A stretch of 64,000 nt of DNA from an uncultured Gammaproteobacteria bacterium (GCA_947258975.1 CAMYKK010000013.1:9496-73495); one strand, 5' to 3'; numbered from the stretch's first letter, positions 11,855 to 39,895 are shown. Notes: generated by a model not told the origin, from the sequence alone. Program-made: numbers and translations.

Positions 11855-11933
11855 TTGATCGGGATCAAAAAGCGTATTGACGGGCGGATGTTAAGCTCGA
11901 AGCCCTTGGACGATACACAGCGAGACGCGCGAC

Positions 11934-26422: not shown

Positions 26423-26437
26423 TGGCACGCTCGCGGC
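26423..26437 (+). promoter_or_regulatory. Candidate sigma-54 promoter upstream of the hydrogenase operon
   Basis: TGGCACGCTCGCGGC has the GG-N10-GC spacing of the -24/-12 class. The -12 region (CGGC) is a weak match to TTGC. It lies about 115 nt upstream of the hupH-like ATG. Confidence 0.25.
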
Positions 26438-26550
26438 GGAGAACCCGCGATTCCCTATACCGCGTGGTTGACTCAGATCAAAGAAGGTCGGCAGAAATAG
26501 CGGTAGGTTGCCATATTAACGGGGAAAGTTGGGAACGTAACACAAAGTCG

Positions 26551-26967: not shown

Positions 26968-28067
26968 TGATGGTCAAGCCAGCGAGCCTTGCTGAACATT
27001 TGGAGTGCCACCAAGTCAGCCGGCGCGGGTTCCTAAAGTTCTGCGCACTCACGACCTCGATGATGGCGCTGTCCCCTTCCATGATGCCGGCGGTTGCCCG
27101 CGCGCTCGAAAAGGCACGTCGACCATCGGTTATCTGGCTGTCGTTCCAGGAGTGCACGGGATGCACCGAATCGCTGACCCGCTCCCACTCCCCGACCATT
27201 GAAAATCTCATCCTCAACTACCTCTCACTGGACTACCATCACACCTTGCAGGCTGCGTCGGGGGATGCCGCGGAGCGGGCCAGAGAGGCGGCCATGTCCG
27301 AAAATTACGGACAGTACATACTCGCGGTGGACGGATCGATTCCGGTAAAAGACGGCGGCGTTTATTCCACCATCGCCGGCGTCAGCAATCTCGAGATGTT
27401 GCAGCACACGGTCGCGGGCGCCGCCGCAGTCGTTGCCATAGGATCGTGCGCGGCATTCGGGGGTTTACCGCACGCCCATCCCAATCCCACCGGCGCCGTG
27501 CCGGTACAAGAGCTGGTGCACGACAAGCCGGTCGTGAATGTCTCCGGGTGCCCGCCGATCCCGGTGGTGATTTCAGGTGTACTCGCTCACTATCTCACAT
27601 TCGGCCGCATCCCCGACCTCGACAGCTACGGACGACCGCTGTCGTTCTTTGGCGCCAGCATCCACGACCGTTGTTATCGGCGACCCTACTACAACAAGGG
27701 CCTGTTCGCCGAGACCTTTGATGACGAGGGTGCGAAGAACGGCTGGTGCCTGTTCAAGCTGGGCTGTAAAGGGCCGACCACCTACAACGCCTGCGCCACC
27801 GCGAAATGGAACCAGGGAACGAGTTTTCCTATTCAGTCAGGGCATGGCTGCATCGGCTGCTCCGAGCCCCACTTTTGGGATGCGGGGGGCTTTTATCAAC
27901 CCCTGTCCGCGGGCATCGGCAGTGTGGGCACATTGGCGGGGATGGCGGTCGTGGCCGGCGCCGCGGCGGGGACCGCCGCCGGGCGTTTGCATCAAGCGAA
28001 GCGGAAACAAGCCCAGCGTCAACACGAAAAAGTCACTGTCGCCGACCTCGAGGAGACGGATTCATGA
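26967..28067 (+). CDS. hynS: [NiFe] uptake hydrogenase small subunit (Isp-type, group 1e), Tat signal
   Basis: Tat motif SRRGFLKF. VIWLSFQECTGCTES, GSCAAFGG, VSGCPP and the distal cluster CIGCSEPHFWD. Confidence 0.95.
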   Translation: MMVKPASLAEHLECHQVSRRGFLKFCALTTSMMALSPSMMPAVARALEKARRPSVIWLSFQECTGCTESLTRSHSPTIENLILNYLSLDYHHTLQAASGDAAERAREAAMSENYGQYILAVDGSIPVKDGGVYSTIAGVSNLEMLQHTVAGAAAVVAIGSCAAFGGLPHAHPNPTGAVPVQELVHDKPVVNVSGCPPIPVVISGVLAHYLTFGRIPDLDSYGRPLSFFGASIHDRCYRRPYYNKGLFAETFDDEGAKNGWCLFKLGCKGPTTYNACATAKWNQGTSFPIQSGHGCIGCSEPHFWDAGGFYQPLSAGIGSVGTLAGMAVVAGAAAGTAAGRLHQAKRKQAQRQHEKVTVADLEETDS

Positions 28068-28723
28068 CTAGCGTCGAATTGTTGATCTGGGTCCGCGGAC
28101 CCGGGCTGCAGCTCTCGCTCGCGGCTTTTATCCTGGGCATGACTTACCGGATACTGCAAACCTATTTTCTGGGACGGGCCAAGAACTTGGCGGAACCGCG
28201 GGGATCAGAGTGGGTTCACGGCATAAAGACCATCTGGTGGCGTTCGTTTTTCCATCCGGGCATGACCGTTCGCGGTTATTTCACGATTATCAGCGGTTAC
28301 ATGTTCCATCTTGGATTCATTGTTACCCTACTGTTTTTCGATCAGCATATCGAGTTGTTCAAGAGCTGGACCGGATTGTCGTGGCCGGCACTGCCTCCGA
28401 TCGTGATTACGGTAACCGCGGTATTGGGAATCGCCGCGCTGGTCGCGGTGTTGGTGGACCGCTTCGCCGATCCGGTTCGCTACCTGTTATCAGACTATCA
28501 AGACTATCTGTGTTGGACGTTGACCGTATTACCGCTGGTGACCGGACTGCTGCTTGCATACAAGATTTGGCTGCCGTACACAAGTTTATTGACCGTTCAC
28601 ATCATCAGTTTTGAACTTCTGCTGGTGGCAATCCCGTTCACCAAGCTGAGCCATGTGTTCACCATCTTCATCGCGCGCTGGTACAACGGAGCGATCGCCG
28701 GTTACAGGGGGGTCCAGTCATGA
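28064..28723 (+). CDS. isp1: Isp1: NarI/DsrM-like dihaem b-type membrane subunit
   Basis: 219 aa from the ATG at 28064, with an ATGA overlap with the hynS stop. Five TM helices with conserved His residues. Located between hynS and hynL, as in Allochromatium and Thiocapsa. Confidence 0.85.
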   Translation: MTSVELLIWVRGPGLQLSLAAFILGMTYRILQTYFLGRAKNLAEPRGSEWVHGIKTIWWRSFFHPGMTVRGYFTIISGYMFHLGFIVTLLFFDQHIELFKSWTGLSWPALPPIVITVTAVLGIAALVAVLVDRFADPVRYLLSDYQDYLCWTLTVLPLVTGLLLAYKIWLPYTSLLTVHIISFELLLVAIPFTKLSHVFTIFIARWYNGAIAGYRGVQS

Positions 28724-30009
28724 CCGTATCGGTAGAGCGGGGCATCCAGACCTTGAAAGAGCATATCGATGCTCCGGTGGCATCCTTCTTTACTACTTGT
28801 GTGCACTGCGGGATGTGCGCGGACGCATGCCTTTTCTACACCGAGACCAAAGATCCGAAATACACGCCCATCTACAAGCTCAAACCGATGCGGCGGTTGT
28901 GGCATCAAGAATACACATTTTGGGGCAAGCTGGCCGCGAAATTGGGATTGAGCAAGCCGGTCACCGCCGCTGAGTTGAAGGAGTGGGAAGAACTGGTTTA
29001 CGACAGTTGCACCATGTGCGGTCGCTGTTCAATGACATGCCCGGTGGGCAACGATATTGTCTACATGATTCGCAAAATGCGTGAAGGCATGGTTGCAGCA
29101 GGCTTCGCCCCGGAAGGCCTCAAGGCCGCGACCAAACGTGCAATCACCATTGGCAGTCCCATGGGAGTCAAGTTGCCGGCGCTCAAGAACCAGATCAAAC
29201 ACATCGAGACGGACACCGGACTGACGATCCCCGTGGATGTCAACGGCGCCGAATACATGGCTTTGTTGTCATCCATGGAGATTATGAACTTCCCCGAATA
29301 CATCGGGGCGATCGCCAAGATCTTCCACAGCGCAGGCATCAGTTGGACACTCGCCTCGGACGCATTCGAAGCGACCAACAGTGGTATACAGATCGGTTCC
29401 AGTGATCTTGCCGCCGAACTAGTCGCGCGAGTCGTTGCCGCGGCGGAGCGGCTAAAAGTGGCTTATGTGATCAGCCCGGAATGCGGACATGCGTATATGG
29501 CGCTGCGCTGGGAAGGCCCCAATCTGATCGGGCGGCCCTTCTCGTTCAAGGTCATCCATATTCTCGAGTTACTTGATCAACTGCGGGCGCAAAACCGCTT
29601 ACCGGTAACCGGGAAGATCAAGGAAAAACTCACCCTCCACGACCCCTGTCAGATTGTGCGCCGCGGTGGTGTCGTCGATGAGCCGCGCCGCTTGCTCGAT
29701 ATGGTCGCCGCAGATTTTGAGGAAATGGAGGATCACGGCGTCATGAACTGGTGTTGCGGGGGTGGCGGCGGCGTGAGCGCCAACGAGCGCGCCTCGAAAC
29801 TCAAATTGACTGCGTTCAATCGCAAGCGGCATCAGCTTGAAGCATTGGGCGTAAACACCCTGATCACCGCGTGCGCCAACTGTCGCATCACGCTGGAAGA
29901 AGGTCTGGAATTCAATAATATGGATGTCGTCGTGTTGGGGCTTGCAGAAACCTTGGCCGAGCACCTTGAACAACAGACCTCGAGTTCCGCCACAACCGCC
30001 ACTCAATAA
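28720..30009 (+). CDS. isp2: Isp2: HdrD/DsrK-like Fe-S protein with CCG domains
   Basis: CVHCGMCADAC and CTMCGRCSMTCP ferredoxin motifs. CCG-type motifs HDPCQ and NWCCGGGGG. Confidence 0.9.
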   Translation: MTVSVERGIQTLKEHIDAPVASFFTTCVHCGMCADACLFYTETKDPKYTPIYKLKPMRRLWHQEYTFWGKLAAKLGLSKPVTAAELKEWEELVYDSCTMCGRCSMTCPVGNDIVYMIRKMREGMVAAGFAPEGLKAATKRAITIGSPMGVKLPALKNQIKHIETDTGLTIPVDVNGAEYMALLSSMEIMNFPEYIGAIAKIFHSAGISWTLASDAFEATNSGIQIGSSDLAAELVARVVAAAERLKVAYVISPECGHAYMALRWEGPNLIGRPFSFKVIHILELLDQLRAQNRLPVTGKIKEKLTLHDPCQIVRRGGVVDEPRRLLDMVAADFEEMEDHGVMNWCCGGGGGVSANERASKLKLTAFNRKRHQLEALGVNTLITACANCRITLEEGLEFNNMDVVVLGLAETLAEHLEQQTSSSATTATQ

Positions 30010-30021
30010 CGAGATCTCATC

Positions 30022-31740
30022 ATGAATCAACGTGTCGTCGTCGACCCCATCACCCGGATCGAAGGTCATCTCCGCATTGAGGCAAAAATGGATGAAGACA
30101 CCATCGCCGAAGCATACTCATCGGGGACCATGGTGCGGGGTATCGAGATTATCCTCCGCGGCCGCGACCCGCGGGATGCATGGGCGTTCGCGCAGCGTAT
30201 CTGCGGGGTCTGCACCCTGGTACACGGTATCGCGGCGGTGCGCGCGGTGGAAAACGCCCTCGACTATCGTATTCCCCCCAACGCCCAGTTGATACGCAAC
30301 CTCATGATCGCCGCCCAGTATGTGCACGATCACGTCATGCATTTCTATCATCTGCACGCGTTGGACTGGGTTGACGTCGTATCGGCGCTGCAAGCCGACC
30401 CGAAAGCGACCTCGGAACTCGCCCAGTCGATCAGCGGCTACGCTAAATCCTCGCCGGGCTACTTCGCCGACAAGCAAAAACAACTCAAGCGTTTTGTTGA
30501 AAGCGGACAATTGGGTATTTTTGCCAATGCGTATTGGGGGCATCCCGGCTACAAGTTGCCCCCGGAGGCCAATCTGATGGCGGTGGCCCATTATTTGGAG
30601 GCGCTGGCATGGCAGCGTGATGTCGCCAAGTTACACACCATCTTCGGAGGCAAGAATCCCCACCCCAACTTTCTGGTCGGGGGAGTGCCCTGCCCCATTG
30701 ATCTCAATTCCGATTCCGCAATCAATGCCAAAATACTGGCTCAAGTCCAAGACATCCTCACCCAGATGCGCGAGTTCGTAGATCAAGTCTATGTACCGGA
30801 TACGTTGGCGATCGCCGCGTTTTACAAGGATTGGGGCAGCCGTGGCGAGGGAGTCGGCAACTTTCTCACCTACGGGGATTTTCCTGAACAGGGCATGGAC
30901 GATCCCGCTTCGTACTTGATCCCCGCCGGTGTCATTATGGACCGGGATTTGTCCACCGTGCACGAGGTGGACCTGCACGCCAAGGAACAGATTCAGGAAT
31001 ATATCGCCCACTCCTGGTACGACTATGATGCCGGCAAACAGCAGGGCTTGCATCCGTACGATGGCGAAACCAACATCCATCACACCGGTCCCAAGCCGCC
31101 GTATGAGCACCTCGACGTCGAGCAGTCCTATTCGTGGCTTAAATCGCCCCGCTGGAAAGGCGCGGCCATGGAGGTCGGTCCGCTGGCGCGGGTGCTGATG
31201 CTTTACGCACGCGGTCACGCACAGACGAAAGAACTGGTCGATATGGTATTACAACGTCTTGAAGTCCCGGTTACGGCCTTGTTCTCCACGCTTGGACGCA
31301 CCGCGGCACGCACCCTGGAGACGAAGATCATCGGCGATGCCATGCAGACTTGGTACGACCATCTCATTGCCAATATAAAGGCCGGCGACACCAAGACATT
31401 CAACGCAACGCTTTGGGAGCCTTCGACCTGGCCCAGTCACGCCCGCGGTGTAGGATTCATGGAGGCGCCGCGCGGTGCATTGGCGCATTGGATCGTGATC
31501 AAGGACGGCAAGATCGATAATTATCAAGCGGTGGTGCCCAGCACCTGGAACGCGGGCCCCCGGGATGCCCGGGGTCAACCCGGTCCCTATGAAGCGGCAC
31601 TGGTGGGTCACCAGCTGCTCGACCCCCAAAAACCTCTCGAGATCCTGCGCACCATCCACAGCTTTGATCCGTGTATCGCGTGCGCGGTCCATATCACCGA
31701 TCCCAGTGGCGGAGAGCTCATCAAGGTCAGTGTGTCGTGA
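30022..31740 (+). CDS. hynL: [NiFe] uptake hydrogenase large subunit
   Basis: N-terminal RIEGH…RICGVCTLVH (L1/L2 motifs). C-terminal DPCIACAVH followed by a 15-residue extension (ITDPSGGELIKVSVS) that the maturation protease would remove. Confidence 0.95.
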   Translation: MNQRVVVDPITRIEGHLRIEAKMDEDTIAEAYSSGTMVRGIEIILRGRDPRDAWAFAQRICGVCTLVHGIAAVRAVENALDYRIPPNAQLIRNLMIAAQYVHDHVMHFYHLHALDWVDVVSALQADPKATSELAQSISGYAKSSPGYFADKQKQLKRFVESGQLGIFANAYWGHPGYKLPPEANLMAVAHYLEALAWQRDVAKLHTIFGGKNPHPNFLVGGVPCPIDLNSDSAINAKILAQVQDILTQMREFVDQVYVPDTLAIAAFYKDWGSRGEGVGNFLTYGDFPEQGMDDPASYLIPAGVIMDRDLSTVHEVDLHAKEQIQEYIAHSWYDYDAGKQQGLHPYDGETNIHHTGPKPPYEHLDVEQSYSWLKSPRWKGAAMEVGPLARVLMLYARGHAQTKELVDMVLQRLEVPVTALFSTLGRTAARTLETKIIGDAMQTWYDHLIANIKAGDTKTFNATLWEPSTWPSHARGVGFMEAPRGALAHWIVIKDGKIDNYQAVVPSTWNAGPRDARGQPGPYEAALVGHQLLDPQKPLEILRTIHSFDPCIACAVHITDPSGGELIKVSVS

Positions 31741-31814: not shown

Positions 31815-32867
31815 TCAACGAGCACGTTGGTGTCGGGATTGGATATCACCCGTTTCCTGTCGAAGGGTGGAGGGCGATATCTCGCGTTGCACCGCGGCGA
31901 AGCTGCGTGCGAATGCCCCGTGATCCCGTAATGCGCGCGTGAGCCGCGGGATGGCCGCACGCGCTTGGTCCAGATCCGCGAACACGCCGCCCACGACGAC
32001 ATAGCGTTTACCAACCGGCGCGATTGCCGCCACCTGCTCGATCCGGTGACGTACCACGAACTCCCGCGCGGCGCCGCGGGAGCGCAACGTGCCGAGTTGC
32101 ACGGTGTAGTGACGCGGATTTTGCGCCAGAATCCATGCGGTCTCGCGGATGACTGTTGGCTGAATGGTGGCCTGTTGTTGGCCGGCAACCGGCGGACGCG
32201 GCGCCGACTGCTCAGTGTGGTTTGTGCCGATGGCCGCGAGCATCTCGCGGGCCGGCGCGAACCCGGCAGCGGCGGCCGGACGCAACCAGCGGCGCGCCAG
32301 TTGGACGTCGCGCGGCGCGCCCTCCCCGGTGACATAGACGCGCCCCAGATGATATTGGGCCTCGATATGGCCGCCGGACGCCGCCAACCGCCACCAATGA
32401 ATGGCGTTTTGCAGACTTTTCGGCACGCCTTCCCCGCGCTGGAACAATGTCCCGAGATTATATTGCGCGTTAGTGTGGCCGGCTTTCGCTGCACGCTGCC
32501 ACATAGTTGCCGCCGCGGCGAAATCAACAGCAATGCCCGCGCCGCGGTACAGCATGCCGCCCAGGTTATATTGCGCCGGCACGTAACCCTGTTCGGCGGC
32601 ACGGTAATACCACTGCACCGCTTGTTCGGCATCTGTCGCAACGCCGGTTCCCTTCTCCAGCATCAATCCGACGTTATACTGCGCCGCCGCGTCGCCGCGT
32701 ACGGCAAGGCCCACCCAGATCTCGAACGCCTGAAGATAGTTGCCCCGGTCGTGTGCGTCGACACCAGCCGCGAAGTTTTGCGCCTCGCCATGACCTGCCA
32801 GCATCATGCTGACCACCAGCGATGACGCTGCCACGATGCGGAACGCCGTGGAAGGCCCGACAGTCAC
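31815..32867 (-). CDS. Sel1-repeat (TPR-like) protein with C-terminal SPOR domain
   Basis: Signal/anchor sequence followed by 5 Sel1 units (AAQYNVGLMLEKGTGV, PAQYNLGGMLYRGAGI, NAQYNLGTLFQRGEGV, EAQYHLGRVYVTGEG…). The C-terminus HYTVQLGTLRSRGAAREF…YVVVGGVFADLDQARAA is SPOR-like. Confidence 0.85.
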   Translation of the reverse strand: MTVGPSTAFRIVAASSLVVSMMLAGHGEAQNFAAGVDAHDRGNYLQAFEIWVGLAVRGDAAAQYNVGLMLEKGTGVATDAEQAVQWYYRAAEQGYVPAQYNLGGMLYRGAGIAVDFAAAATMWQRAAKAGHTNAQYNLGTLFQRGEGVPKSLQNAIHWWRLAASGGHIEAQYHLGRVYVTGEGAPRDVQLARRWLRPAAAAGFAPAREMLAAIGTNHTEQSAPRPPVAGQQQATIQPTVIRETAWILAQNPRHYTVQLGTLRSRGAAREFVVRHRIEQVAAIAPVGKRYVVVGGVFADLDQARAAIPRLTRALRDHGAFARSFAAVQREISPSTLRQETGDIQSRHQRAR

Positions 32868-33537
32868 GGGCCTGGGTCCCCTGGACGCAGCAGGTCTCTA
32901 CGGCTGCTCGATAACTGCGGTTCAAAATCATCGCGACCGGGCATACAACTTCCAATTACCCTTGCTGTCTTGGGCGCCGCCGTTGGTTTAAAGGGCCGCC
33001 TATCATACGTCAAACAAGGGGATCGAGGTACCGACGGTGAGGAATGTGCGGCGTGACTCCACGAATAGTGGTGATTAAGATGGCTATCTCATGCGCACGG
33101 CTTGATTGAAATGCGTCCGGATGCCATCCTGTTTGACACCAGTCTGTTTTTCTCGCTAGACATCGAGAAATAATGCCGGGCGTCTGGTGGCCAAAGACGA
33201 AAGTTGGTCCATGTGTGGCGCTCAATTTCGGCAGTGCCGGTTACGGACACGGTTGCCGCACGGCACAAAGCATGCCGGGGATTGTTTCCGGCGGCTTTGC
33301 CGCTCGTAGTGGATTGGGCCACACGCCGGCGGCGCTCAATCGAGCGACGGCCACCGGCGTGTATTGTTGTAAAGAGCGGACGCACCAGCAATCTAATACA
33401 ATCTGATTATGAAAAGCCCCGGCATGTGCAGCAAGGTCTGCACGCCGTTCATCTGCGGGGCACAATTGTTTTTGATTCGTAACCATAAAACATACCATGA
33501 TACGGAGTAGTATGACCGGCGTGTTGAGAGGAACGAC

Positions 33538-35169
33538 ATGAGTGAAAAACGGCACGATATGACGCGGCCACCCGATCTGAAACATGGCCAGTTTGCAGGT
33601 CCGCGCCGCATTCGACGCCCCACCTACGTCGATCTTTTGCCCCCATGCAACCAGGCATGCCCGGCAGGGGAAAACATTCAAGGATGGCTGACCCATGCAC
33701 AGCAGGGCCAGATTGAGGAGGCGTGGCGGATACTCATGGCGGACAATCCCATGCCCGCCGTGCACGGGCGGGTCTGTTATCACCCGTGCGAAAACGAATG
33801 CAACCGCAAGCGCCTGGACGCCACCGTCAGCATCCACGCCGTGGAGCGCTTTCTCGGTGATCAGGCGCTCGAACATGGGTGGCTGGTGCGCGCCCGGACC
33901 AAACCAACCGGGAAGCGTGTGTTGGTCGTCGGCGCCGGCCCGAGCGGATTATCCGCGGCCTACCACCTGGCGTACATGGGACACAGCGTAGTAATTTATG
34001 AAGCGGGACCGGTGGCGGGCGGTATGATGCATTTCGGGATTCCCAAGTACCGCCTGCCCAGGGATGTTCTCGATGCCGAGATCCGGCGTATCGAAGCCCT
34101 GGGCGTAAACATCGTGCTCAATCGCAAGGTCGAGGATTTGCTCGCGGAGAAGGAAGAAGGAGACTTTGATGCGTTGTTTGTCGCGGTCGGTGCGCATTTG
34201 AGTAAACGCACCGACATTCCTGCGCGTGACGCCGGGAAGATGCTGGACGCGGTCAACTTCCTGCATGATGTGGAAACCGGCGCGGCACCCAAGCTCGGCC
34301 GCCGGGTGGCAATCTATGGAGGCGGCAACACCGCAATGGACGCGGCACGTGTCGCAAAACGCCTGGGTATTGACGATGCGCTGATTATCTATCGGCGCGA
34401 CCGCGCCCATATGCCGGCCCACGATGCGGAAGCGGACGAAGCCCTGCAGGAAGGAGTCAAAATCCATTGGCTGCGTACCATCAGGGAGATCGACCAGAGC
34501 ACGTTTACTGTTGAGGCGATGCAGATTGACGAAAACGGCCGGCCGCAACCCACCGGTGAACTGGAGACACTGGAAGCGGACACGCTGATTCTCGCGCTGG
34601 GACAGGATGTGGAAACGGCTTTTTTAAAGAACGTGCCCAACTTGACGTTCCACAAAGACGGCACGGTGGAAGTGGACAAAAATCTGATGACTGGATATCC
34701 CGGGCTGTTTGCGGGCGGCGATATGGTGCCGTCCGAGCGTACGGTTACGGTTGCTGTCGGACATGGCAAGAAGGCGGCACGAAACATTGATGCCTACCTC
34801 CGGGGAACAAGCTATTCCCAGCCGGCAAAAAATGATCTGGCCGGCTTCGAAAAGCTACACGTTTGGTACTTCACCGACGCCGCGCAACGACCGCAAAAAC
34901 ATATCGACATCAAGCAGCGGCTCACGAGTTTCGATGAAGTCGTGGGTGGCTTGTCCGCAAAACAGGCCGTGTATGAGGCGCGGCGATGCTTATCCTGTGG
35001 AAATTGTTTTGAATGTGACGGCTGCTATGCCGCGTGCCCGGAAGATGCGGTTATCAAACTCGGTTCTGGCAAGCGCTACCGCTTCGACTACGATCACTGC
35101 ACTGGCTGTGCGATCTGTTTTGAACAGTGCCCTTGCCATGCCATCGATATGGTTCCCGAGCCCGGCTGA
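33538..35169 (+). CDS. GltD/PreT-like NAD(P)H flavoprotein with extra C-terminal 2x[4Fe-4S] ferredoxin domain
   Basis: CNQACPAGENIQGW and VCYHPCENECNR (N-terminal clusters). VLVVGAGPSGLSAAYHLA and VAIYGGGNTAMDAAR (two dinucleotide folds). C-terminal CLSCGNCFECDGCYAACP and CTGCAICFEQCPCHAI. Confidence 0.85.
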   Translation: MSEKRHDMTRPPDLKHGQFAGPRRIRRPTYVDLLPPCNQACPAGENIQGWLTHAQQGQIEEAWRILMADNPMPAVHGRVCYHPCENECNRKRLDATVSIHAVERFLGDQALEHGWLVRARTKPTGKRVLVVGAGPSGLSAAYHLAYMGHSVVIYEAGPVAGGMMHFGIPKYRLPRDVLDAEIRRIEALGVNIVLNRKVEDLLAEKEEGDFDALFVAVGAHLSKRTDIPARDAGKMLDAVNFLHDVETGAAPKLGRRVAIYGGGNTAMDAARVAKRLGIDDALIIYRRDRAHMPAHDAEADEALQEGVKIHWLRTIREIDQSTFTVEAMQIDENGRPQPTGELETLEADTLILALGQDVETAFLKNVPNLTFHKDGTVEVDKNLMTGYPGLFAGGDMVPSERTVTVAVGHGKKAARNIDAYLRGTSYSQPAKNDLAGFEKLHVWYFTDAAQRPQKHIDIKQRLTSFDEVVGGLSAKQAVYEARRCLSCGNCFECDGCYAACPEDAVIKLGSGKRYRFDYDHCTGCAICFEQCPCHAIDMVPEPG

Positions 35170-35245
35170 GTATGTCCGTAAAGACTTTACACATCCATGC
35201 AACAAGAATCGAAGCACACCTAATTCACGGTTATCATAAACGACG

Positions 35246-38200
35246 ATGTCGACCCAGCACGTAATCTTTGACGGCAACGAAGCCGCCGCTTATGTGGCGT
35301 ACAAAACCAATGAAGTTTGCGCCATCTATCCAATAACGCCATCTTCGACAATGGGAGAATTAGCGGACCAGTGGACTACCGAGGGCCGAAAAAACATCTG
35401 GGATAACGTGCCGGTAGTGGTGGAGATGCAAAGCGAGGGCGGCGCCGCCGGGGCCATTCATGGGGCGCTGCAGACCGGCGCATTGAGTACCACATTCACC
35501 GCATCGCAAGGCCTGCTGTTGATGATTCCCAATATGTACAAGATCGCCGGAGAACTCACCTCCGCGGTATTTCACGTGGCCGCGCGATCATTGGCTACGC
35601 AGGGGCTGTCTATATTTGGCGATCACTCTGACGTGATGGCGGTGAGGTCCACGGGGTTCGCCCTGCTGGCCTCCGGCTCCGTCCAGGAGGCACATGATCT
35701 CGCCCTTGTCACCCAAACTGCCACGCTGCGAACGCGTATTCCGTTCGTGCATTTCTTCGATGGATTCCGCACGTCACATGAAGTAAACAAAATCACGTTG
35801 TTAACGGATGACGTAATCAAGGCGATGATTCCCGATGCATTGGTGTTCGCACATCGTGCACGCGGCCTTAACCCGGATCATCCATTTATTCGTGGCACCG
35901 CACAAAACCCAGACGTGTATTTTCAGGGACGTGAAACTGTGAATTCTTTCTATCGTGATGCGCCGGAGATTGTGCAGGCGAGCATGGATCAGTTCACGGA
36001 ACTAACGGGGCGTCCATACGCCCTTTTTGAATACCACGGACATCCCGAGGCCGAACGCGTCATTGTGATCATGGGATCAGGCGCAGAGACGGTGCGTGAG
36101 ACCGTGGATTTCTTGCAGGGAATGGATGCCAAAGTAGGTGTCGTCCAAGTGCGCCTGTACCGGCCGTTCTCTGCCACGCATTTTCTGAACGTGCTCCCGG
36201 CGACGACCAAGACCATTGCAGTGTTGGACCGGACCAAGGACCCGGCTGCCAACGGCGAACCCCTATATGTCGACGTGGTCACCACATTGTCGGAGGCGTT
36301 GTCCGACGGAAACCTACCCTGGCCGGACCTGCCACGGGTGGTCGGTGGGCGTTTCGGCCTGTCTTCCAAAGAGTTCACCCCCGCCATGGTCAAAGGGATT
36401 TACGACGCATTGTCCACGAATACGCCCAAGAATCATTTCACCATCGGTATTCAGGACGACCTGACCCACACCAGCCTCGACTACGACCCCGATTTTGTGA
36501 TCGAATCCGACACCACCGTACGCGCGATGTTTTTCGGTCTCGGCGCTGACGGTACGGTGAGCGCCAACAAGAACAGCATCAAGATAATCGGCGAGGATCC
36601 GCGTTTCTATGCGCAGGGTTACTTCGTATACGATTCCAAGAAGTCCGGATCACAGACCGTGTCTCACCTGCGCTTCGGACCCGAGCCGATTCGATCTACA
36701 TACCTCGTGCAGTCAGCCAATTTTATCGGCTGCCACCAATTCAGTTTTCTTGAAACAGCGGACGTGCTGGCGCGCGCCGCACACGGCGCCACATTTCTCC
36801 TGAACAGCCCTCACGGTCCCGATGAGGTGTGGGAGTTTTTACCTGGATTCGTGCAACAGCAGATTATCGACAAGCAACTTTCCCTTTACGTTGTTGATGC
36901 CTACAAAGTGGCACGTGACGCCGGTATGGGAACCCGCATCAATACAATTATGCAAACCTGCTTCTTCGCGGTCTCGAACGTCCTTCCCAGGGAAGAAGCC
37001 GTTGCAAAAATCAAAAATACGATCAAAAAGACCTATTTTAAGAAAGGCGACGAAGTAGTCCGCAAGAACTTTCGAGCGGTTGATGAGACTCTCGCCAATC
37101 TGTACGCAGTGACGGTGCCCAAACAGGTTACCAATCCAATAACAAAGCGGGAGATCGTGCCTGCTAATGCGCCGGTTTTCGTGCGCAACGTCACCGCGTT
37201 GATGATGGACGGACGAGGAGACGAATTGCCGGTAAGCATGCTGCCGATCGACGGCACCTATCCGAGCGGCACGGCGGCGTGGGAGAAGCGCAACATTTCC
37301 ATGTTCGTGCCGGTGTGGGAACCGGATATATGCATTCAATGCGGCAACTGTGGTCTCGTATGCCCGCACAGCGTCATACGCTCGAAGTTTTATAACAAAT
37401 CTCGGCTCCAATCAGCGCCATCCACATTCCAATCCGCCGCGCTCAGCGGGCGTGGGTTTCCGGACGTGTATTACACGCTACAGGTGTATGTGGAGGACTG
37501 TACGGGTTGTACCCTGTGCGTGGAAGTCTGCCCCGCGAAGAGTAAAGAGAAAAGCGGTGTGAAGGCGCTCAATATGCGTCCTAAACCGCCTGATCTGGAG
37601 CCGGAACGCAACAACATCGACTTTTTCCAGGCGCTTCCGGACAATGATCGAGGACGTGTCGATTTCAGCACCGTGCGCGGTGTGCAGTACCTGCAACCAC
37701 TATTCGAATTTTCCGGGGCCTGTGCCGGATGCGGTGAAACACCCTACCTGAAGCTGCTATCACAATTATTTGGAGATCGCTTGCTGATCGCCAATGCGAC
37801 GGGTTGTTCCTCGATTTACGGTGGCAATCTCCCAACGACGCCATGGGCCGTGAATCAGGAAGGACGCGGTCCGGCGTGGTCCAATTCGTTGTTTGAGGAC
37901 AACGCGGAATTCGGCCTCGGTTTCCAGTTGACGGCGGAAAAACATCGCGCGGTCGCTTACCAACTACTACAGGAATTGCGATCGATACTTGGCGCAGACT
38001 TTGTTGATGACATACTGACGGCGGCACAAGACGAGGAGTCGGAGATCCGGGCGCAACGTGCTCGAGTCAGCGAGCTCAAACAACAACTGGAAACGCTGCA
38101 TAACGCGACCGCGACGCGTCTTCTGTCTTTGGCAGATCAACTCGTGCGCCGCAGCGTGTGGCTCGTTGGCGGAGACGGCTGGGCCTATGACATCGGCGCC

Positions 38201-38824
38201 GGCGGACTAGATCATGTACTCTCCATGGATCGCGACGTGAACGTACTGGTTTTGGACACCGAAGTCTATTCGAACACCGGCGGACAAATGTCAAAATCGA
38301 CGCCGCTTGCCGCGGTGGCCAAATTTGCCGTTGGCGGCAAGACGGTAGGCAAAAAAGACCTCGCACTTCAGGCCATCTCCTATGGTCATGTCTACGTCGC
38401 AAGGGTTGCCCTCGGCGCTAATCCACAACAAACCTTGCTCGCGTTTCGTGAAGCCGAAACCTATAAAGGTCCATCGCTCATTCTTGCCTATAGCCCTTGT
38501 ATCGCCCACGGGATCAACATGGAGCATGGGCTACAGCAACAGAAGCTTGCTGTAGAGAGTGGGTACTGGCCATTGATGCGTTACAACCCGGACCTGCGCC
38601 GCGACGAGAGAAACCCTTTTATGCTGGATTCTCCGCGTCCCACTATTCCTCTGAAGCACTATGCGTATAAGGAACTGCGCTACGATATACTGCGGCGGAC
38701 CAATCCCGATCGGGCCGATCTACTCATGAACCTCGCCCAAGAAAACGTTGATTTAAAATGGCGCGTGTATGAGGAAATGGCCACCAGGGGTGACTCAGAA
38801 TATCACTTCGCCAAACCAAACTAA
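35246..38824 (+). CDS. nifJ: Pyruvate:ferredoxin (flavodoxin) oxidoreductase, single-polypeptide NifJ/YdbK type
   Basis: 1192 aa. Internal ferredoxin domain CIQCGNCGLVCPH / CTGCTLCVEVCP. TPP-binding GGDGWAYDIG…LVLDTEVYSNTGGQ. Confidence 0.95.
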   Translation: MSTQHVIFDGNEAAAYVAYKTNEVCAIYPITPSSTMGELADQWTTEGRKNIWDNVPVVVEMQSEGGAAGAIHGALQTGALSTTFTASQGLLLMIPNMYKIAGELTSAVFHVAARSLATQGLSIFGDHSDVMAVRSTGFALLASGSVQEAHDLALVTQTATLRTRIPFVHFFDGFRTSHEVNKITLLTDDVIKAMIPDALVFAHRARGLNPDHPFIRGTAQNPDVYFQGRETVNSFYRDAPEIVQASMDQFTELTGRPYALFEYHGHPEAERVIVIMGSGAETVRETVDFLQGMDAKVGVVQVRLYRPFSATHFLNVLPATTKTIAVLDRTKDPAANGEPLYVDVVTTLSEALSDGNLPWPDLPRVVGGRFGLSSKEFTPAMVKGIYDALSTNTPKNHFTIGIQDDLTHTSLDYDPDFVIESDTTVRAMFFGLGADGTVSANKNSIKIIGEDPRFYAQGYFVYDSKKSGSQTVSHLRFGPEPIRSTYLVQSANFIGCHQFSFLETADVLARAAHGATFLLNSPHGPDEVWEFLPGFVQQQIIDKQLSLYVVDAYKVARDAGMGTRINTIMQTCFFAVSNVLPREEAVAKIKNTIKKTYFKKGDEVVRKNFRAVDETLANLYAVTVPKQVTNPITKREIVPANAPVFVRNVTALMMDGRGDELPVSMLPIDGTYPSGTAAWEKRNISMFVPVWEPDICIQCGNCGLVCPHSVIRSKFYNKSRLQSAPSTFQSAALSGRGFPDVYYTLQVYVEDCTGCTLCVEVCPAKSKEKSGVKALNMRPKPPDLEPERNNIDFFQALPDNDRGRVDFSTVRGVQYLQPLFEFSGACAGCGETPYLKLLSQLFGDRLLIANATGCSSIYGGNLPTTPWAVNQEGRGPAWSNSLFEDNAEFGLGFQLTAEKHRAVAYQLLQELRSILGADFVDDILTAAQDEESEIRAQRARVSELKQQLETLHNATATRLLSLADQLVRRSVWLVGGDGWAYDIGAGGLDHVLSMDRDVNVLVLDTEVYSNTGGQMSKSTPLAAVAKFAVGGKTVGKKDLALQAISYGHVYVARVALGANPQQTLLAFREAETYKGPSLILAYSPCIAHGINMEHGLQQQKLAVESGYWPLMRYNPDLRRDERNPFMLDSPRPTIPLKHYAYKELRYDILRRTNPDRADLLMNLAQENVDLKWRVYEEMATRGDSEYHFAKPN

Positions 38825-38890
38825 TCAATGCGACTACCTTCAATGCCGTGCAACGATGACTAGGCTTGAGAATCTCCGGAGGTCCTGATT

Positions 38891-39895
38891 ATGGATTTAA
38901 ACACCACTTACATGGGCATCAAGTTAAAACACCCTATCGTCGCCTCGGCGTCACCGCTATCCGAAGATGTCGACAATATCAGGCGGATGGAAGATGCCGG
39001 CGCCTCGGCGGTAGTGATGTTTTCACTATTCGAGGAACAGCTTCAGCATGAGTCCGCTGCCATGGAGCATCTCATGTCGTACGGGACGAACAGTTTCGCG
39101 GAGGCGCTGAGTTACTTCCCTGCGGTCGACGAATATCACGCGGGCCCCGATCGTTACCTTGACATCCTCCGCCGCGCATCCGAGGCCGTGGACATTCCCA
39201 TTATTGGAAGCTTGAACGGTATCAGCGATGAAGGCTGGATCGACTATGCCAAAAACATGGAGCAGGCAGGTGCCCGCGGTATAGAACTCAACATCTATTA
39301 CATTCCCGCCGACCTCAGCATGTCCGGACACGACGTTGAACGGCGTTATGTGGATATTGCAAAACATGTCAAGGCATCGGTCTCCATTCCGGTCGCATTC
39401 AAACTAAGCGCATACTTCAGCTCGTTCGGGCACCTGGCCAAACAACTCGATGAGGCCGGCGTCGACGCGTTGGTGCTTTTCAACCGTTTTTGGCAGCCGG
39501 ACTTTGATATCGAACAACGCGAGATTGTGCATAACCTGGATCTGAGCAGACCGGGGCAAATCCGCATGCGTTTACTGTGGATCGCGCTGCTCTACGGCCG
39601 CGTTAAGGCGTCACTTGGCGCCACTACGGGGGTGTATAGCCATATTGAGGTGATCAAATACCTGATGGCGGGCGCTGATGCCGTGATGACTACGTCCGCG
39701 TTGCTAAAGAACGGCATCGGGTTTCTAGCGACACTGCACGATCAACTTAGACATTGGATGGAGGAAAACGAATACAGTTCGGTCGCACAAATGAAGGGCT
39801 CCATGAGCCAACGGCATGTTGCAGATCCCACGGCGTTCGAGCGCGCCAACTACATCAAGATATTGGAGAGTTACAAGAGTTCCTACGCGTTGTAG
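38891..39895 (+). CDS. Dihydroorotate/dihydropyrimidine dehydrogenase-like TIM-barrel flavoprotein, cysteine-free
   Basis: 334 aa. PIVASASPLS…GIELNIYYIP…VAFKLSAYF…LFNRF… follows the class-1 DHOD/PreA fold pattern. ELNIYYIP replaces the ELNxSCPN active-site loop, and the protein contains no Cys at all. Confidence 0.8.
   Translation: MDLNTTYMGIKLKHPIVASASPLSEDVDNIRRMEDAGASAVVMFSLFEEQLQHESAAMEHLMSYGTNSFAEALSYFPAVDEYHAGPDRYLDILRRASEAVDIPIIGSLNGISDEGWIDYAKNMEQAGARGIELNIYYIPADLSMSGHDVERRYVDIAKHVKASVSIPVAFKLSAYFSSFGHLAKQLDEAGVDALVLFNRFWQPDFDIEQREIVHNLDLSRPGQIRMRLLWIALLYGRVKASLGATTGVYSHIEVIKYLMAGADAVMTTSALLKNGIGFLATLHDQLRHWMEENEYSSVAQMKGSMSQRHVADPTAFERANYIKILESYKSSYAL

What the first reader, a model, noticed from the sequence alone, without database searches (positions are those of the whole stretch)
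33538..39895. PFOR sandwiched between a PreT-like and a catalytically disarmed PreA-like subunit: a candidate NAD(P)H-linked pyruvate oxidoreductase/synthase module
Three co-oriented, closely spaced genes encode the following:
- A GltD/PreT-like flavoprotein with two N-terminal Fe-S motifs and two dinucleotide folds. It also carries an extra C-terminal 2x[4Fe-4S] domain (CLSCGNCFECDGCYAACP, CTGCAICFEQCPCHAI).
- A 1192-aa NifJ-type pyruvate:ferredoxin oxidoreductase.
- A 334-aa DHOD/PreA-like TIM-barrel protein.

Why the arrangement is unusual:
- In E. coli PreT-PreA and in mammalian dihydropyrimidine dehydrogenase, the ferredoxin-like domain sits on the PreA (FMN) part. Here it has moved to the PreT-like partner.
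- The barrel protein contains no cysteine at all. Its active-site loop reads ELNIYYIP instead of ELNxSCPN, so the catalytic base used by DHOD-1A/DPD is absent. A pyrimidine-reducing role therefore seems unlikely.

Inference: the two flanking proteins may form an NAD(P)H-FAD-[4Fe-4S]n-FMN electron wire that docks to PFOR. That would couple pyruvate oxidation or synthesis directly to pyridine nucleotides, possibly with bifurcating behaviour, in place of or in addition to free ferredoxin. I do not know of a biochemical characterisation of this trio.
Basis: partly seen in the sequence, partly recalled or inferred. Interest (0 to 1): 0.6.

Follow-up and report, generated by a model that had tools for sequence, protein, structure and literature searches.

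The report
PFOR operon with two flavoprotein partners
The three genes are real and conserved, but the core unit is pyruvate:ferredoxin oxidoreductase plus an uncharacterised, catalytically remodelled DHOD-like flavoprotein found next to it in many phyla; the NADPH-type iron-sulfur flavoprotein is a later add-on that probably links pyruvate oxidation to NADPH.

Summary
Observation confirmed. Three co-oriented genes, 76 and 66 bp apart, encode an NfnB/GltD/PreT-like Fe-S flavoprotein with an extra C-terminal ferredoxin domain (NCBIfam PRK12771), a canonical 1192-aa NifJ-type PFOR, and a cysteine-free PreA/DHOD-like barrel (NCBIfam PRK07565, "DHOD-like protein").

Interpretation partly supported. 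In 80 species-representative genomes from at least 12 phyla, the DHOD-like gene lies directly downstream of PFOR in 74. The GltD-like gene is present in only 13 of 52 assessable loci. All 19 PFORs with an adjacent GltD-like gene form one exclusive clade (Alpha- and Gammaproteobacteria, Bacteroidota; some plasmid-borne), and Thiogranum has GltD-like plus PFOR without the barrel. So the two partners attach to PFOR independently, not as one obligatory NAD(P)H-FAD-FeS-FMN wire.

Most likely, the GltD-like protein drains PFOR electrons to NADP+, as the characterised stand-alone homolog CAC0764 does from ferredoxin. The barrel is probably a PFOR-dedicated FMN partner whose acceptor is unknown.

The trio is not unnoticed. 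It was described as co-transcribed in Propionibacterium in 2020, and the pair sits in the Synechocystis nifJ operon (sll0744). I found no biochemical characterisation.

The parts
33472..33533 (+). Putative regulatory region. It holds a degenerate CRP/FNR-type box TTGAT-TCGT-AACCA (33472-33485), a -10-like TAGTAT (33508-33513) and the RBS GAGAGGAA (33526-33533), ahead of the ATG at 33538.
   Evidence: Sequence. Two relatives have perfect palindromes at the aligned position (L096 TTGAC-N4-GTCAA, L090 TTGAC-N4-ATCAA). The window's own site is a 2-mismatch match, and such matches are common by chance (about 80 expected per 64 kb). It is weak evidence only.
33538..35169 (+). Gene 1: an NfnB/GltD/PreT-family Fe-S flavoprotein (PRK12771, 543 aa), with FAD and an NADPH-type Rossmann fold and four predicted [4Fe-4S] clusters.
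   Evidence: The closest solved chains are 9bov_A (E 5.5e-97), 8oh5_C, NfnA-named 9n5u_A, NfnI large subunit 5jca_L and GltD.
33640..33879 (+). N-terminal Fe-S domain (Fer4_20, residues 35-114) with C37, C41, C80, C84 and C88. It lacks the leading RCxxC pair present in PreT and NfnB.
   Evidence: a 13-residue deletion relative to PreT and the L079 NfnB-like protein, seen in all 13 trio orthologs.
34975..35160 (+). C-terminal extension (residues 480-541). The permuted E-A-x-RCLSC motif (C484, C487) is fused directly to a canonical 2x[4Fe-4S] ferredoxin motif (C490/493/496/500 and C521/524/527/531), plus C533.
   Evidence: all 11 Cys are invariant in 13 orthologs; the RCLSC segment aligns to PreT's N-terminal RCLLC; the same layout is seen in 9bov_A. 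PorD_KorD hit, 49 bits.
35246..38824 (+). Gene 2: NifJ-type homodimeric pyruvate:ferredoxin (flavodoxin) oxidoreductase, 1192 aa.
   Evidence: TIGR02176, 1750 bits; 6cin, 1b0p.
37304..37543 (+). PFOR domain V, the ferredoxin-like 2x[4Fe-4S] electron exit (residues 687-766). This is the proposed docking side for both partners.
   Evidence: Fer4 hits at 688-766; 15 of 16 residues that discriminate trio-clade PFORs lie in domains V-VI (binomial p about 2.5e-5).
38878..38882 (+). Strong Shine-Dalgarno sequence GGAGG for gene 3.
   Evidence: Sequence.
38891..39895 (+). Gene 3: DHOD-like protein (PRK07565 family, 334 aa). It is a PreA/DPD-type TIM barrel with no Cys and no Fe-S domain.
39284..39313 (+). 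Remodelled active-site loop E132-L-N134-I-Y136-Y137-I-P-A-D141. Y137 replaces the catalytic Cys and the loop is 7 residues shorter than in PreA.
   Evidence: hhalign; family frequencies.

Best explanation
This is a three-gene catabolic redox operon built on an ancient two-gene unit.

The unit is a NifJ-type PFOR plus a dedicated PRK07565 'DHOD-like' barrel protein. The barrel retains most FMN-binding motifs of PreA/DPD but has lost the catalytic Cys, the Lys and the pyrimidine loop. In their place it has a strongly conserved new pocket (S45-x-F47-E48-E49, N109, Y136, R199, K256, R318, Y321).

In one PFOR sub-clade, which includes this window, an NfnB/GltD-type flavoprotein was added upstream. 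Its N-terminal cluster motif is circularly permuted, so that a C-terminal ferredoxin domain is tethered two residues from the cluster ligands. This gives a predicted chain of four [4Fe-4S] clusters leading to FAD and an NADPH-type site.

Proposed working:
1. PFOR oxidises pyruvate (PFOR identity shown by homology).
2. Electrons leave through domain V. The ferredoxin domain of the GltD-like protein docks there and passes them over four clusters to FAD, which reduces NADP+ to NADPH. This would make a non-covalent functional analogue of eukaryotic pyruvate:NADP+ oxidoreductase, non-bifurcating like CAC0764 (inferred).
3. The barrel protein, which lacks its own ferredoxin domain, uses PFOR domain V in trans, much as PreA's barrel uses its own C-terminal ferredoxin domain. 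It acts as an FMN electron acceptor or adaptor giving PFOR a second, non-ferredoxin outlet. Its final acceptor is unknown (inferred, the weakest step).

The physiological setting is fermentative or hypoxic breakdown of stored carbohydrate.
For: **PFOR-barrel linkage**
- The barrel gene is directly downstream of PFOR on the same strand in 74 of 80 loci from at least 12 phyla, and 68 of 74 lie within 300 bp.
- No other gene family recurs around the pair.
- The PFOR and barrel distance matrices correlate (r = 0.87, Mantel 0/999).
- Co-transcription and co-regulation are reported in Propionibacterium (PMC7650540) and Synechocystis TU3296 (PMC11368403).

**GltD-like as an add-on that contacts PFOR**
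- It is present in 13 of 52 assessable loci.
- It lies directly upstream of PFOR in 5 of 5 look-ups from its own side.
- All 19 PFORs with this neighbour form one exclusive clade.
- 15 of 16 clade-signature residues lie in PFOR domains V-VI, including gained K780, R1068, R1118 and R1131.
- The barrel has only 3 such columns.
- The trio sits on plasmids in Methylovirgula and Phenylobacterium.

**NADP(H) link**
- The window clade has the GGGNTAMD...IYRRDRxHMPA motif, as in GltD and NfnB, whereas NADH-dependent PreT has VAREELDEFPA.
- The purified NfnB-like CAC0764 is a strict, non-bifurcating ferredoxin:NADP+ reductase (PMC9365771).

**Cluster chain**
- 16 invariant Cys and the permuted RCLSC motif.

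**Barrel as an FMN protein**
- K171, N134, N198, G247, G261 and S269 are retained and near-invariant in 116 members.
- The best fold matches are the DPD FMN domain and DHOD B.

**Electron-sink theme**
- Alternative sinks follow the pair elsewhere: NfnAB-like genes (L079) and hoxEFUYH (L010, L053, L071, L034).

**Catabolic context**
- glgP and glycolysis genes precede GltD-like-PFOR in Thiogranum.
- ADH, GAPDH, LDH, ppsA and pfk appear in plasmid loci.
Against: - No physical interaction is shown, and no fusion proteins were found for either partner.
- Purified Synechocystis PFOR reduces ferredoxins and flavodoxin without the barrel.
- Barrel genes occur away from PFOR in L018, L058 and L062 and on Methylocella, Acaryochloris and Stanieria plasmids. 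Distant Bacteroides members are not PFOR-linked.
- FMN binding is unproven: the Lys43/Lys47 equivalent is lost and the AF2 model is only moderate (pLDDT 69.6).
- The strongly conserved polar pocket would also fit a small-molecule enzyme rather than a pure electron carrier.
- The Chitinophagaceae branch of the GltD-like protein lacks the RR signature, so NADPH specificity is not universal.
- The mirror-tree correlation is expected for any two co-inherited genes.
- Operon boundaries in the window are not demonstrated: no significant promoter or terminator signals were found.
Confidence: 0.45

Rival explanations
1. Nfn-like flavin-based bifurcating or confurcating PFOR complex. This is the McCubbin et al. 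hypothesis and the first reader's 'possibly bifurcating' option. The FAD of the GltD-like protein would be the bifurcating site. The Fe-S chain to PFOR would be the low-potential branch, and the barrel's FMN would be the high-potential branch, oxidising NADH or quinol. Pyruvate oxidation would then drive extra NADPH formation, or NADPH plus a second donor would drive pyruvate synthesis.
For: - Strong homology to the bifurcating NfnB subunit (5jca_L, E 1.6e-75).
- A bona fide NfnA-like plus NfnB-like pair follows PFOR and the barrel in Acidobacteriaceae locus L079.
- The hypothesis is published for Propionibacterium.
Against: - The barrel occurs with PFOR but without the GltD-like protein in most lineages. 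The GltD-like protein occurs with PFOR but without the barrel in Thiogranum.
- The barrel has no Fe-S cluster, no Rossmann fold and no membrane or quinone-type segment.
- The barrel carries few trio-specific residues.
- The stand-alone homolog CAC0764 does not bifurcate.
Confidence: 0.15
2. Co-regulated but physically independent enzymes of a hypoxia or fermentation regulon. The GltD-like protein would be a free ferredoxin:NADP+ reductase using soluble ferredoxin. The barrel would be a soluble FMN enzyme acting on an unidentified small molecule, for example an enoate or fumarate-like acceptor or another fermentation intermediate. Genes would cluster with PFOR only for co-expression.
For: - Barrel genes lie next to hox, hyp, ldh, ppsA, pfk and adh genes without PFOR in L058, Acaryochloris and Stanieria.
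- Usp and CBS genes sit nearby in several loci.
- The barrel has a near-invariant polar pocket: E48, E49, N109, N134, R199, K256, R318 and Y321.
- PFOR alone works with ferredoxins.
- No fusion proteins were found.
Against: - 96% adjacency (74 of 77 assessable loci) with short gaps across at least 12 phyla, and no other conserved neighbour, is tighter than regulon-level association.
- The built-in ferredoxin domain on the GltD-like protein argues for direct docking.
- PFORs that have the GltD-like neighbour form an exclusive clade with signature changes on the electron-exit domains.
Confidence: 0.25
3. The barrel is a protective or maintenance partner that allows PFOR to persist in oxygen-exposed cells, for example by draining stray electrons or re-reducing damaged clusters. 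It would not be a metabolic electron outlet.
For: - Many host lineages are aerobes or facultative: Cyanobacteria, Chitinophagaceae, Acidobacteriota, Trueperaceae, Methylovirgula and Phenylobacterium.
- E. coli ydbK lacks the partner.
- Synechocystis PFOR functions under photomixotrophic as well as anoxic conditions.
Against: - The pair is also present in anaerobic lineages such as Anaerolineae/Bellilinea, Pontiellaceae and Caldithrix.
- No thiol or peroxidase-type chemistry is possible, since there is no conserved Cys.
- There is no direct evidence.
Confidence: 0.1
4. An NADPH-driven pyruvate synthase for CO2 fixation in a hydrogen- or sulfur-oxidising autotroph.
For: - A NiFe hydrogenase cluster lies next to the trio here and directly upstream in the closest relatives.
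- PFOR is reversible in principle (established biochemistry).
Against: - NADPH (about -320 mV) cannot reduce the PFOR clusters (about -500 mV) without bifurcation (established thermodynamics).
- The contexts are catabolic: glgP and glycolysis genes in Thiogranum, fermentation genes elsewhere.
- Many hosts are heterotrophs.
Confidence: 0.05

Closest known systems
E. coli PreT-PreA and mammalian dihydropyrimidine dehydrogenase (NAD(P)H-FAD-4x[4Fe-4S]-FMN wire)
   Same: Gene 1 is 33% identical to PreT over residues 36-423. Gene 3 aligns with PreA's barrel at 99.4% probability, and its best fold match is the DPD FMN domain. The total cofactor inventory would be the same: FAD, four clusters and FMN.
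   Different: The ferredoxin domain is on the PreT-like protein, not on the barrel. The catalytic Cys, the Lys and the pyrimidine loop are lost. The two genes are separated by PFOR, and each occurs with PFOR without the other.
NfnB/SudA/GltD family, including the stand-alone ferredoxin:NADP+ reductase CAC0764 of C. acetobutylicum, and the NfnB-like modules in solved chains 9bov_A and 8oh5_C
   Same: Same Fer4_20 plus FAD/NADPH fold and an NADPH-type YRR motif. CAC0764 shows that such a protein can act alone as a strict NADP(H)-dependent ferredoxin oxidoreductase. The permuted RCLxC motif after the flavin domains is shared with 9bov_A.
   Different: It carries its own 2x[4Fe-4S] ferredoxin domain and is encoded directly upstream of PFOR. 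There is no NfnA or GltB partner in the window. I recalled the identity of 8oh5 as the Sporomusa Stn transhydrogenase from memory and did not check it.
Eukaryotic pyruvate:NADP+ oxidoreductase (PNO of Euglena and Cryptosporidium; from my own knowledge)
   Same: PFOR chemistry coupled directly to NADP+ reduction without free ferredoxin. This is the activity proposed here.
   Different: PNO is a single polypeptide fused to an NADPH-cytochrome P450 reductase-type FMN/FAD module. Here the NADPH module is a separate NfnB-type Fe-S flavoprotein, and no fusions were found.
Propionibacterium nifJ1 cluster (McCubbin et al. 2020, PMC7650540)
   Same: By the paper's description it is the same trio: a GltD-like protein with an extra ferredoxin site, PFOR, and a DHOD-like protein. 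The genes are co-transcribed and co-regulated, and a PFOR knockout cripples growth.
   Different: It is in Actinobacteria. The proposed mechanism (a quinol-oxidising bifurcating complex) is untested. I could not retrieve the sequences to confirm orthology.
Synechocystis sp. PCC 6803 nifJ operon (sll0741-sll0743-sll0744, TU3296)
   Same: PFOR followed by a 'DHOD (fumarate)'-annotated gene in one transcription unit, induced in dark microoxic conditions. Cyanobacterial orthologous pairs are in my census (L034, L042, L053, L073).
   Different: There is no GltD-like gene, and an extra small gene lies between the pair. That sll0744 belongs to PRK07565 is inferred from annotation and synteny, not tested here.
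DsrL of sulfur oxidisers (from my own knowledge)
   Same: An NfnB/GltD-like NAD(P)H-binding Fe-S flavoprotein with an added C-terminal ferredoxin domain that hands electrons directly to a partner Fe-S enzyme (DsrAB). This is the same design logic.
   Different: It has a different partner enzyme and was not compared by sequence here.

Membership tests
NifJ-type pyruvate:ferredoxin (flavodoxin) oxidoreductase (TIGR02176) | Full-length match above the curated cutoff | tested here: met
   1750 bits against a cutoff of 911, residues 7-1179.
NifJ-type pyruvate:ferredoxin (flavodoxin) oxidoreductase (TIGR02176) | Domain set POR_N, PFOR_II, POR, EKR, 2x[4Fe-4S] and TPP_enzyme_C in one chain | tested here: met
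   End-to-end alignment to solved PFORs 6cin_A and 1b0p_A.
NifJ-type pyruvate:ferredoxin (flavodoxin) oxidoreductase (TIGR02176) | Pyruvate- and CoA-dependent reduction of ferredoxin or flavodoxin | not testable with these tools
   Requires an enzyme assay.
NCBIfam NF009410 (PRK12771) 'NAD(P)-binding protein' | Score above the curated cutoff over the full length | tested here: met
   792 bits against a cutoff of 516, residues 2-541.
NfnB / GltD small-subunit family | Fer4_20 Fe-S domain followed by FAD and NAD(P)H Rossmann domains | tested here: met
   (5jca_L E 1.6e-75; 2vdc_G E 1.2e-50).
NfnB / GltD small-subunit family | N-terminal RCxxC pair completing the first [4Fe-4S] cluster | tested here: not met
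   Deleted at the N-terminus in all 13 orthologs. An equivalent RCLSC motif is present at residues 483-487, so the motif is permuted.
NfnAB bifurcating transhydrogenase | Adjacent NfnA (PyrK-like, FAD plus [2Fe-2S]) partner subunit | tested here: not met
   No such gene in the window. One is present only in locus L079.
PreT-PreA / dihydropyrimidine dehydrogenase | Catalytic Cys on the active-site loop of the FMN barrel | tested here: not met
   Y137 aligns with the PreA Cys. The protein has no Cys, and Cys is not among the commonest residues at this position, which cover 100 of 116 family members.
PreT-PreA / dihydropyrimidine dehydrogenase | C-terminal 2x[4Fe-4S] domain on the barrel subunit | tested here: not met
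   The barrel protein ends after the TIM barrel and has no Fer4 hit.
PreT-PreA / dihydropyrimidine dehydrogenase | NCBIfam PreA equivalog score | tested here: not met
   65 bits against a cutoff of 335.
Dihydroorotate dehydrogenase, class 1 (TIGR01037 / PF01180) | Score above the family cutoff and a catalytic Cys or Ser base | tested here: not met
   TIGR01037 scores 84.7 against a cutoff of 270. Pfam DHO_dh scores 30.3, just above its cutoff of 27. There is no catalytic base.
Dihydroorotate dehydrogenase, class 1 (TIGR01037 / PF01180) | FMN-binding motifs (Lys on strand 5, Asn on strands 4 and 6, Gly-rich phosphate loops) | tested here: inconclusive
   K171, N134, N198, G247, G261 and S269 are retained and near-invariant, but the Lys43/Lys47 equivalent is lost. 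Flavin content needs a biochemical test.
NCBIfam NF005741 (PRK07565) 'dihydroorotate dehydrogenase-like protein' | Score above the curated cutoff over the full length | tested here: met
   473 bits against a cutoff of 303, residues 1-330.
NCBIfam NF005741 (PRK07565) 'dihydroorotate dehydrogenase-like protein' | Family signature residues (S45-L-F-E-E-Q, N109, W116, R199, W230, K256, R318, Y321) | tested here: met
   All are present in the window protein, each in at least 111 of 116 members.
Pyruvate:NADP+ oxidoreductase (PNO) | PFOR fused to an NADPH-cytochrome P450 reductase-type domain | tested here: not met
   The PFOR is 1192 aa with no extra domain. There are no fusions among the top homologs of either partner.

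The most novel reading that the evidence does not exclude
The PRK07565 'DHOD-like' protein is a previously unrecognised class of redox partner: a TIM-barrel FMN protein that has given up substrate chemistry. It would dock on the ferredoxin-like domain V of PFOR, in the way PreA's barrel uses its own ferredoxin domain. This would give PFOR in many bacterial phyla, including model cyanobacteria, a dedicated two-electron outlet or electron adaptor that feeds variable sinks: the NfnB-type NADPH module here, NfnAB or Hox hydrogenase elsewhere. PFOR in these organisms would then not be a purely ferredoxin-linked enzyme.
Probability: 0.3. Interest if true: 0.75.

Novelty: new variant of a known kind. 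Interest (0 to 1): 0.55.

Why it matters
PFOR is a central enzyme of anaerobic and microoxic carbon metabolism and a target for engineering hydrogen, acetyl-CoA and CO2-fixation pathways. It is treated as a stand-alone ferredoxin- or flavodoxin-linked enzyme.

This analysis shows that a whole clade of NifJ-type PFORs, in at least 12 phyla and including Synechocystis, carries a tightly linked, strongly conserved and completely uncharacterised flavoprotein partner. A sub-clade has also acquired an NADPH-type Fe-S flavoprotein with a built-in ferredoxin domain.

If the proposed couplings hold, these bacteria can send pyruvate-derived low-potential electrons straight into NADPH, which is useful for example for PHA or lipid synthesis during anaerobic glycogen use. 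They would also have a second, flavin-based outlet. Redox budgets in metabolic models of cyanobacteria, propionibacteria, glycogen-accumulating organisms and many soil aerobes would need revision.

The question is directly testable in genetically tractable hosts, for example with a Synechocystis sll0744 deletion or in Propionibacterium freudenreichii.

Tried and rejected
- **Diverse alignment for the genome scan.** The 45-sequence alignment A2 had no stretch conserved enough to search with. A closer 18-sequence alignment, A3, worked.
- **Locating the window's own record.** The nearest named relatives are Competibacteraceae, Contendobacter and Candidatus Kentrum.
- **Rosetta-stone fusions.** Odd-length barrel homologs contain only DHO_dh. 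The top 150 representatives are at most 419 aa. The top 120 GltD-like homologs are 536-552 aa. No fusions were found.
- **Rfam scan of the whole window.** No hits.
- **Promoter and terminator scans.** Nothing above shuffled expectation, and no terminator in the two short gaps. The GC-rich hairpin after gene 3 has z = -0.01.
- **FNR-type regulation.** Perfect palindromes occur at the aligned position in two relatives. The window's own site is a 2-mismatch match that is common by chance, so I do not claim FNR control for this window.
- **Structure.** The AF2 model of the barrel reached only pLDDT 69.6, with low-confidence segments at 48-84, 137-142, 214-225 and 310-334. It confirmed only the fold class. 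No multimer prediction is available.
- **Multi-subunit OFOR next to the barrel in L018.** I suspected this from ORF sizes, but Pfam shows unrelated genes.
- **True DHOD or DPD function.** Rejected on the membership tests.
- **Literature.** Searches for sll0744, 'DHOD-like' with PFOR, and nifJ with DHOD found no functional study.

Full report
**1. What is in the window**

Three co-oriented ORFs lie at 33538-35169 (543 aa), 35246-38824 (1192 aa) and 38891-39895 (334 aa), separated by 76 and 66 bp. Gene 3 has a strong GGAGG ribosome-binding site. No terminator-like element lies in either gap, and no Rfam family matches anywhere in the window.

- **Gene 1** has a DPD-type Fe-S domain (Fer4_20), FAD and NAD(P)H Rossmann folds and a C-terminal dicluster ferredoxin domain. 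It scores 792 bits on NCBIfam PRK12771.
- **Gene 2** is a textbook NifJ-type PFOR (TIGR02176, 1750 bits; end-to-end match to solved PFORs).
- **Gene 3** scores 473 bits on NCBIfam PRK07565, 'DHOD-like protein', but fails the true DHOD and PreA models.

**2. The barrel protein**

A profile of 45 diverse family members aligns with E. coli PreA's barrel at 99.4% probability over residues 1-315. The AF2 model's best fold matches are the pig DPD FMN domain, then DHOD B. No close relative has a solved structure.

Residue by residue:
- PreA's catalytic Cys corresponds to Y137.
- The loop carrying it is 7 residues shorter.
- PreA's Lys47 corresponds to F44.
- PreA's C-terminal ferredoxin domain is absent.
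- K171, N134, N198, G247, G261 and the T-T-S phosphate loop are retained.

Across 116 family members:
- The commonest residues at the Cys position are Tyr, Phe, Leu, Ser and Asp (100 of 116); Cys is not among them.
- The commonest residues at the Lys position are Tyr, His, Phe, Pro and Arg (105 of 116); Lys is not among them.
- No Cys column is conserved, and 30 proteins have no Cys at all.
- A new set of residues is almost invariant: S45, F47, E48, E49, N109, W116, E132, R199, W230, K256, R318 and Y321.

The protein is thus not a decaying DHOD. It is a strongly constrained protein with a remodelled pocket that probably still binds FMN. The family is large, with about 1,050 clusters at 50% identity scoring E of 1e-30 or better.

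**3. The GltD-like protein**

It is 33% identical to PreT. Its closest solved relatives are NfnB-like modules (9bov_A, 8oh5_C), then the NfnI large subunit and GltD.

Aligning 13 orthologs with PreT and an NfnB-like protein shows three things:
- The N-terminal RCxxC pair is deleted in all of them.
- An invariant E-A-x-RCLSC motif reappears at residues 480-487, two residues before a canonical 2x[4Fe-4S] motif.
- All 16 Cys are invariant. That is enough for the two DPD-type N-terminal clusters (7 Cys) plus a ferredoxin domain (8 Cys).

I infer a continuous chain of four clusters with the ferredoxin domain tethered to the N-terminal cluster site. The same permuted layout is visible in the alignment to 9bov_A.

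The window clade carries the NADPH-type GGGNTAMD...IYRRDRxHMPA signature, as do GltD and NfnB. NADH-dependent PreT does not, and neither does the Chitinophagaceae branch of the orthologs.

**4. Gene-neighbourhood census**

Scanning one genome per GTDB species with a barrel alignment returned 595 confirmed loci. The best 80 (51-72% identity) come from at least 12 phyla: Gammaproteobacteria, Bacteroidota, Ignavibacteriota, Chloroflexota, Acidobacteriota, Verrucomicrobiota, Cyanobacteria, Deinococcota, Actinomycetota, NC10, Nitrospirales, Calditrichota and others.

- A PFOR 58-72% identical to the window's lies directly upstream on the same strand in 74 of 80 loci, and within 300 bp in 68 of 74.
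- Three of the six exceptions simply lack upstream DNA. L018, L058 and L062 are real exceptions.
- All-against-all clustering of neighbouring ORFs found no other recurrent family apart from the GltD-like protein.
- The GltD-like gene is present upstream of PFOR in only 13 of 52 assessable loci.
- The PFOR and barrel distance matrices correlate at r = 0.87 (Mantel 0/999). Any two co-inherited genes would correlate to some extent.

From the GltD-like side, five of five sampled homologs sit directly upstream of PFOR. Four are full trios. In Thiogranum the order is glgP, GltD-like, PFOR with a 4-bp overlap and no barrel gene, behind gap-pgk-pyk-fba.

Annotated plasmids of Methylovirgula sp. HY1 and Phenylobacterium zucineum carry the trio. 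E. coli ydbK has neither partner.

**5. One origin for the trio**

In a neighbour-joining tree of 64 PFORs rooted on YdbK, all 19 PFORs with an adjacent GltD-like gene form one exclusive clade. It spans Alpha- and Gammaproteobacteria and Bacteroidota, and Thiogranum nests inside it.

This implies a single recruitment of the GltD-like gene into a pre-existing PFOR-barrel operon, followed by horizontal spread (some copies are plasmid-borne) and a secondary loss or relocation of the barrel gene in Thiogranum.

Of 16 alignment columns that discriminate this clade, 15 lie in PFOR domains V and VI, the cluster-bearing electron-exit side. None lie in domains II-IV, and several are gains of basic residues (binomial p about 2.5e-5). 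The barrel has only three such columns. This is suggestive, not conclusive, evidence that the GltD-like protein contacts PFOR itself.

**6. Context**

Where other genes follow the pair they are electron sinks or hypoxia-associated genes:
- NfnA-like plus NfnB-like genes in Acidobacteriaceae locus L079.
- hoxEFUYH adjacent in L010, L034, L053 and L071, and directly after the barrel gene in L058.
- hypF in four loci.
- Usp and CBS proteins in several loci.

Two of the three kinds of plasmid-borne barrel copy without adjacent PFOR sit among pfk, hypD, adh, ldh and ppsA (Acaryochloris and Stanieria). The Methylocella copy has no such neighbours.

In the window, an Isp-type NiFe hydrogenase cluster (hupH-hynS-isp1-isp2-hynL, 26422-31740) lies 1.8 kb upstream. 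In the two closest relatives it abuts the trio on the same strand.

**7. Literature**

- McCubbin et al. 2020 (PMC7650540) noticed the same flanking genes around Propionibacterium nifJ1. They showed co-transcription and co-regulation, found that a PFOR knockout cripples growth, and postulated a bifurcating, quinol-oxidising complex.
- In Synechocystis, transcription unit TU3296 contains nifJ (sll0741), sll0743 and sll0744 ('DHOD (fumarate)') and is transiently induced in dark microoxic conditions (PMC11368403).
- No paper in the library studies sll0744 functionally.
- Purified Synechocystis PFOR reduces several ferredoxins and flavodoxin on its own (bioRxiv 10.64898/2026.04.08.717189).
- The stand-alone NfnB-like protein CAC0764 is a strict, non-bifurcating ferredoxin:NADP+ reductase (PMC9365771).

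**8. Interpretation**

Shown:
- The anatomy of the three genes.
- The family assignments.
- The loss of DHOD/DPD catalytic residues.
- The permuted cluster motif.
- The tight PFOR-barrel linkage across phyla.
- The single-clade distribution of the GltD-like add-on.

Inferred:
- The GltD-like protein docks through its ferredoxin domain on PFOR domain V and reduces NADP+. This would be a non-covalent analogue of eukaryotic PNO.
- The barrel, which lacks a ferredoxin domain of its own, uses PFOR's domain V in trans and serves as an FMN acceptor or adaptor with an unknown final acceptor.

They are not excluded for the trio clade.

The main rival is that the proteins are merely co-regulated members of a fermentative regulon and that the barrel is a small-molecule enzyme. 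The conserved polar pocket and the unlinked copies favour that view. The 96% adjacency (74 of 77 assessable loci) argues against it.

**9. Verdict**

This is a real, conserved and biochemically uncharacterised module. It has been partly anticipated in the literature and in NCBI's family models. The more interesting object is not the trio but the near-universal PFOR-barrel pair. I score interest at 0.55 and rate it a new variant of a known kind (an NADP-linked or partner-assisted PFOR).

Noticed in passing
window 26422-31740 (+); loci L094 1-2756 and L095 1-2732: An Isp-type NiFe hydrogenase cluster (hupH, hynS, a 305-aa ORF with no Pfam hit that is probably isp1, HdrD-like isp2 with a CCG domain, hynL) lies 1.8 kb upstream of the trio. 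In the two closest relatives (about 90% identity), isp2-hynL abut the GltD-like gene on the same strand with a gap of only 245-270 bp. In the window, a Sel1/SPOR gene on the opposite strand (31815-32867) has been inserted between them.
   Followed up: partly
window 26468-26481 and 11855-11868: Two perfect CRP/FNR-type palindromes: TTGACTCAGATCAA at the head of the hydrogenase cluster (just inside the called hupH ORF) and TTGATCGGGATCAA in the 11854-11934 intergenic gap. Matches with up to 2 mismatches are over-represented in the window (107 found against 80.5 +/- 8.9 expected).
   Followed up: no
L079 11078-13518 (+), Acidobacteriaceae MAG: The PFOR-barrel pair is followed on the same strand by an NfnA-like gene (DHODB_Fe-S_bind) and an NfnB-like gene (Fer4_20 plus Pyr_redox_2, with an RR NADPH motif and an intact N-terminal RCxxC). 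This is an independent association of an NfnB-family enzyme with the pair.
   Followed up: partly
L058 4483-10795 (+), Thermoflexales MAG; also L010, L034, L053, L071: In L058 the DHOD-like gene sits directly upstream of hoxEFUYH with hypF nearby and no PFOR within 4.4 kb. In four other loci from Deinococcota, Cyanobacteria and Actinomycetota, hox genes flank the PFOR-barrel pair.
   Followed up: partly
L013, L021, L027, L044, L050, L070 (Chitinophagaceae and Haliscomenobacter trios): The GltD-like orthologs of this branch have GGGKLALY...VYFxGDKKxMPA instead of GGGNTAMD...IYRRDRxHMPA. They lack the Arg pair typical of NADPH binding, so cofactor preference may differ within the trio clade.
   Followed up: no
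L089 1-16320, Thiogranum sp. MAG: GltD-like and PFOR (4-bp overlap) lie behind gap-pgk-pyk-fba and glgP on the same strand. Opposite-strand HdrB/HdrC-like and FlpD-domain genes lie downstream, where the barrel gene would be.
   Followed up: no
L084 (Bacteroides finegoldii plasmid 34) and hit H10 (Parabacteroides distasonis): Distant members (33-35% identity) that PGAP still names 'DHOD-like protein' are not next to PFOR. In Bacteroides the gene follows a YggS-family gene. The PFOR linkage may therefore be a property of one sub-family only.
   Followed up: no
window residues 48-84 and 310-334 of the barrel protein (nt 39032-39142 and 39818-39892): These segments are highly conserved in sequence (SLFEEQ, R318, Y321) but were predicted with very low confidence by AF2 (pLDDT 28-44). 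That pattern is often seen for regions that order only on binding a partner or cofactor.
   Followed up: no
window 19992-22586 (-): A SulP-family permease is fused to a C-terminal tandem universal stress protein domain. Usp genes also recur next to the PFOR-barrel pair in other genomes.
   Followed up: no
L007 4657-9795 (Chitinophagaceae MAG, long-read assembly): Both the GltD-like gene (three frames) and PFOR (two overlapping pieces) are broken by frameshifts. These are probably assembly indel errors rather than pseudogenes.
   Followed up: no
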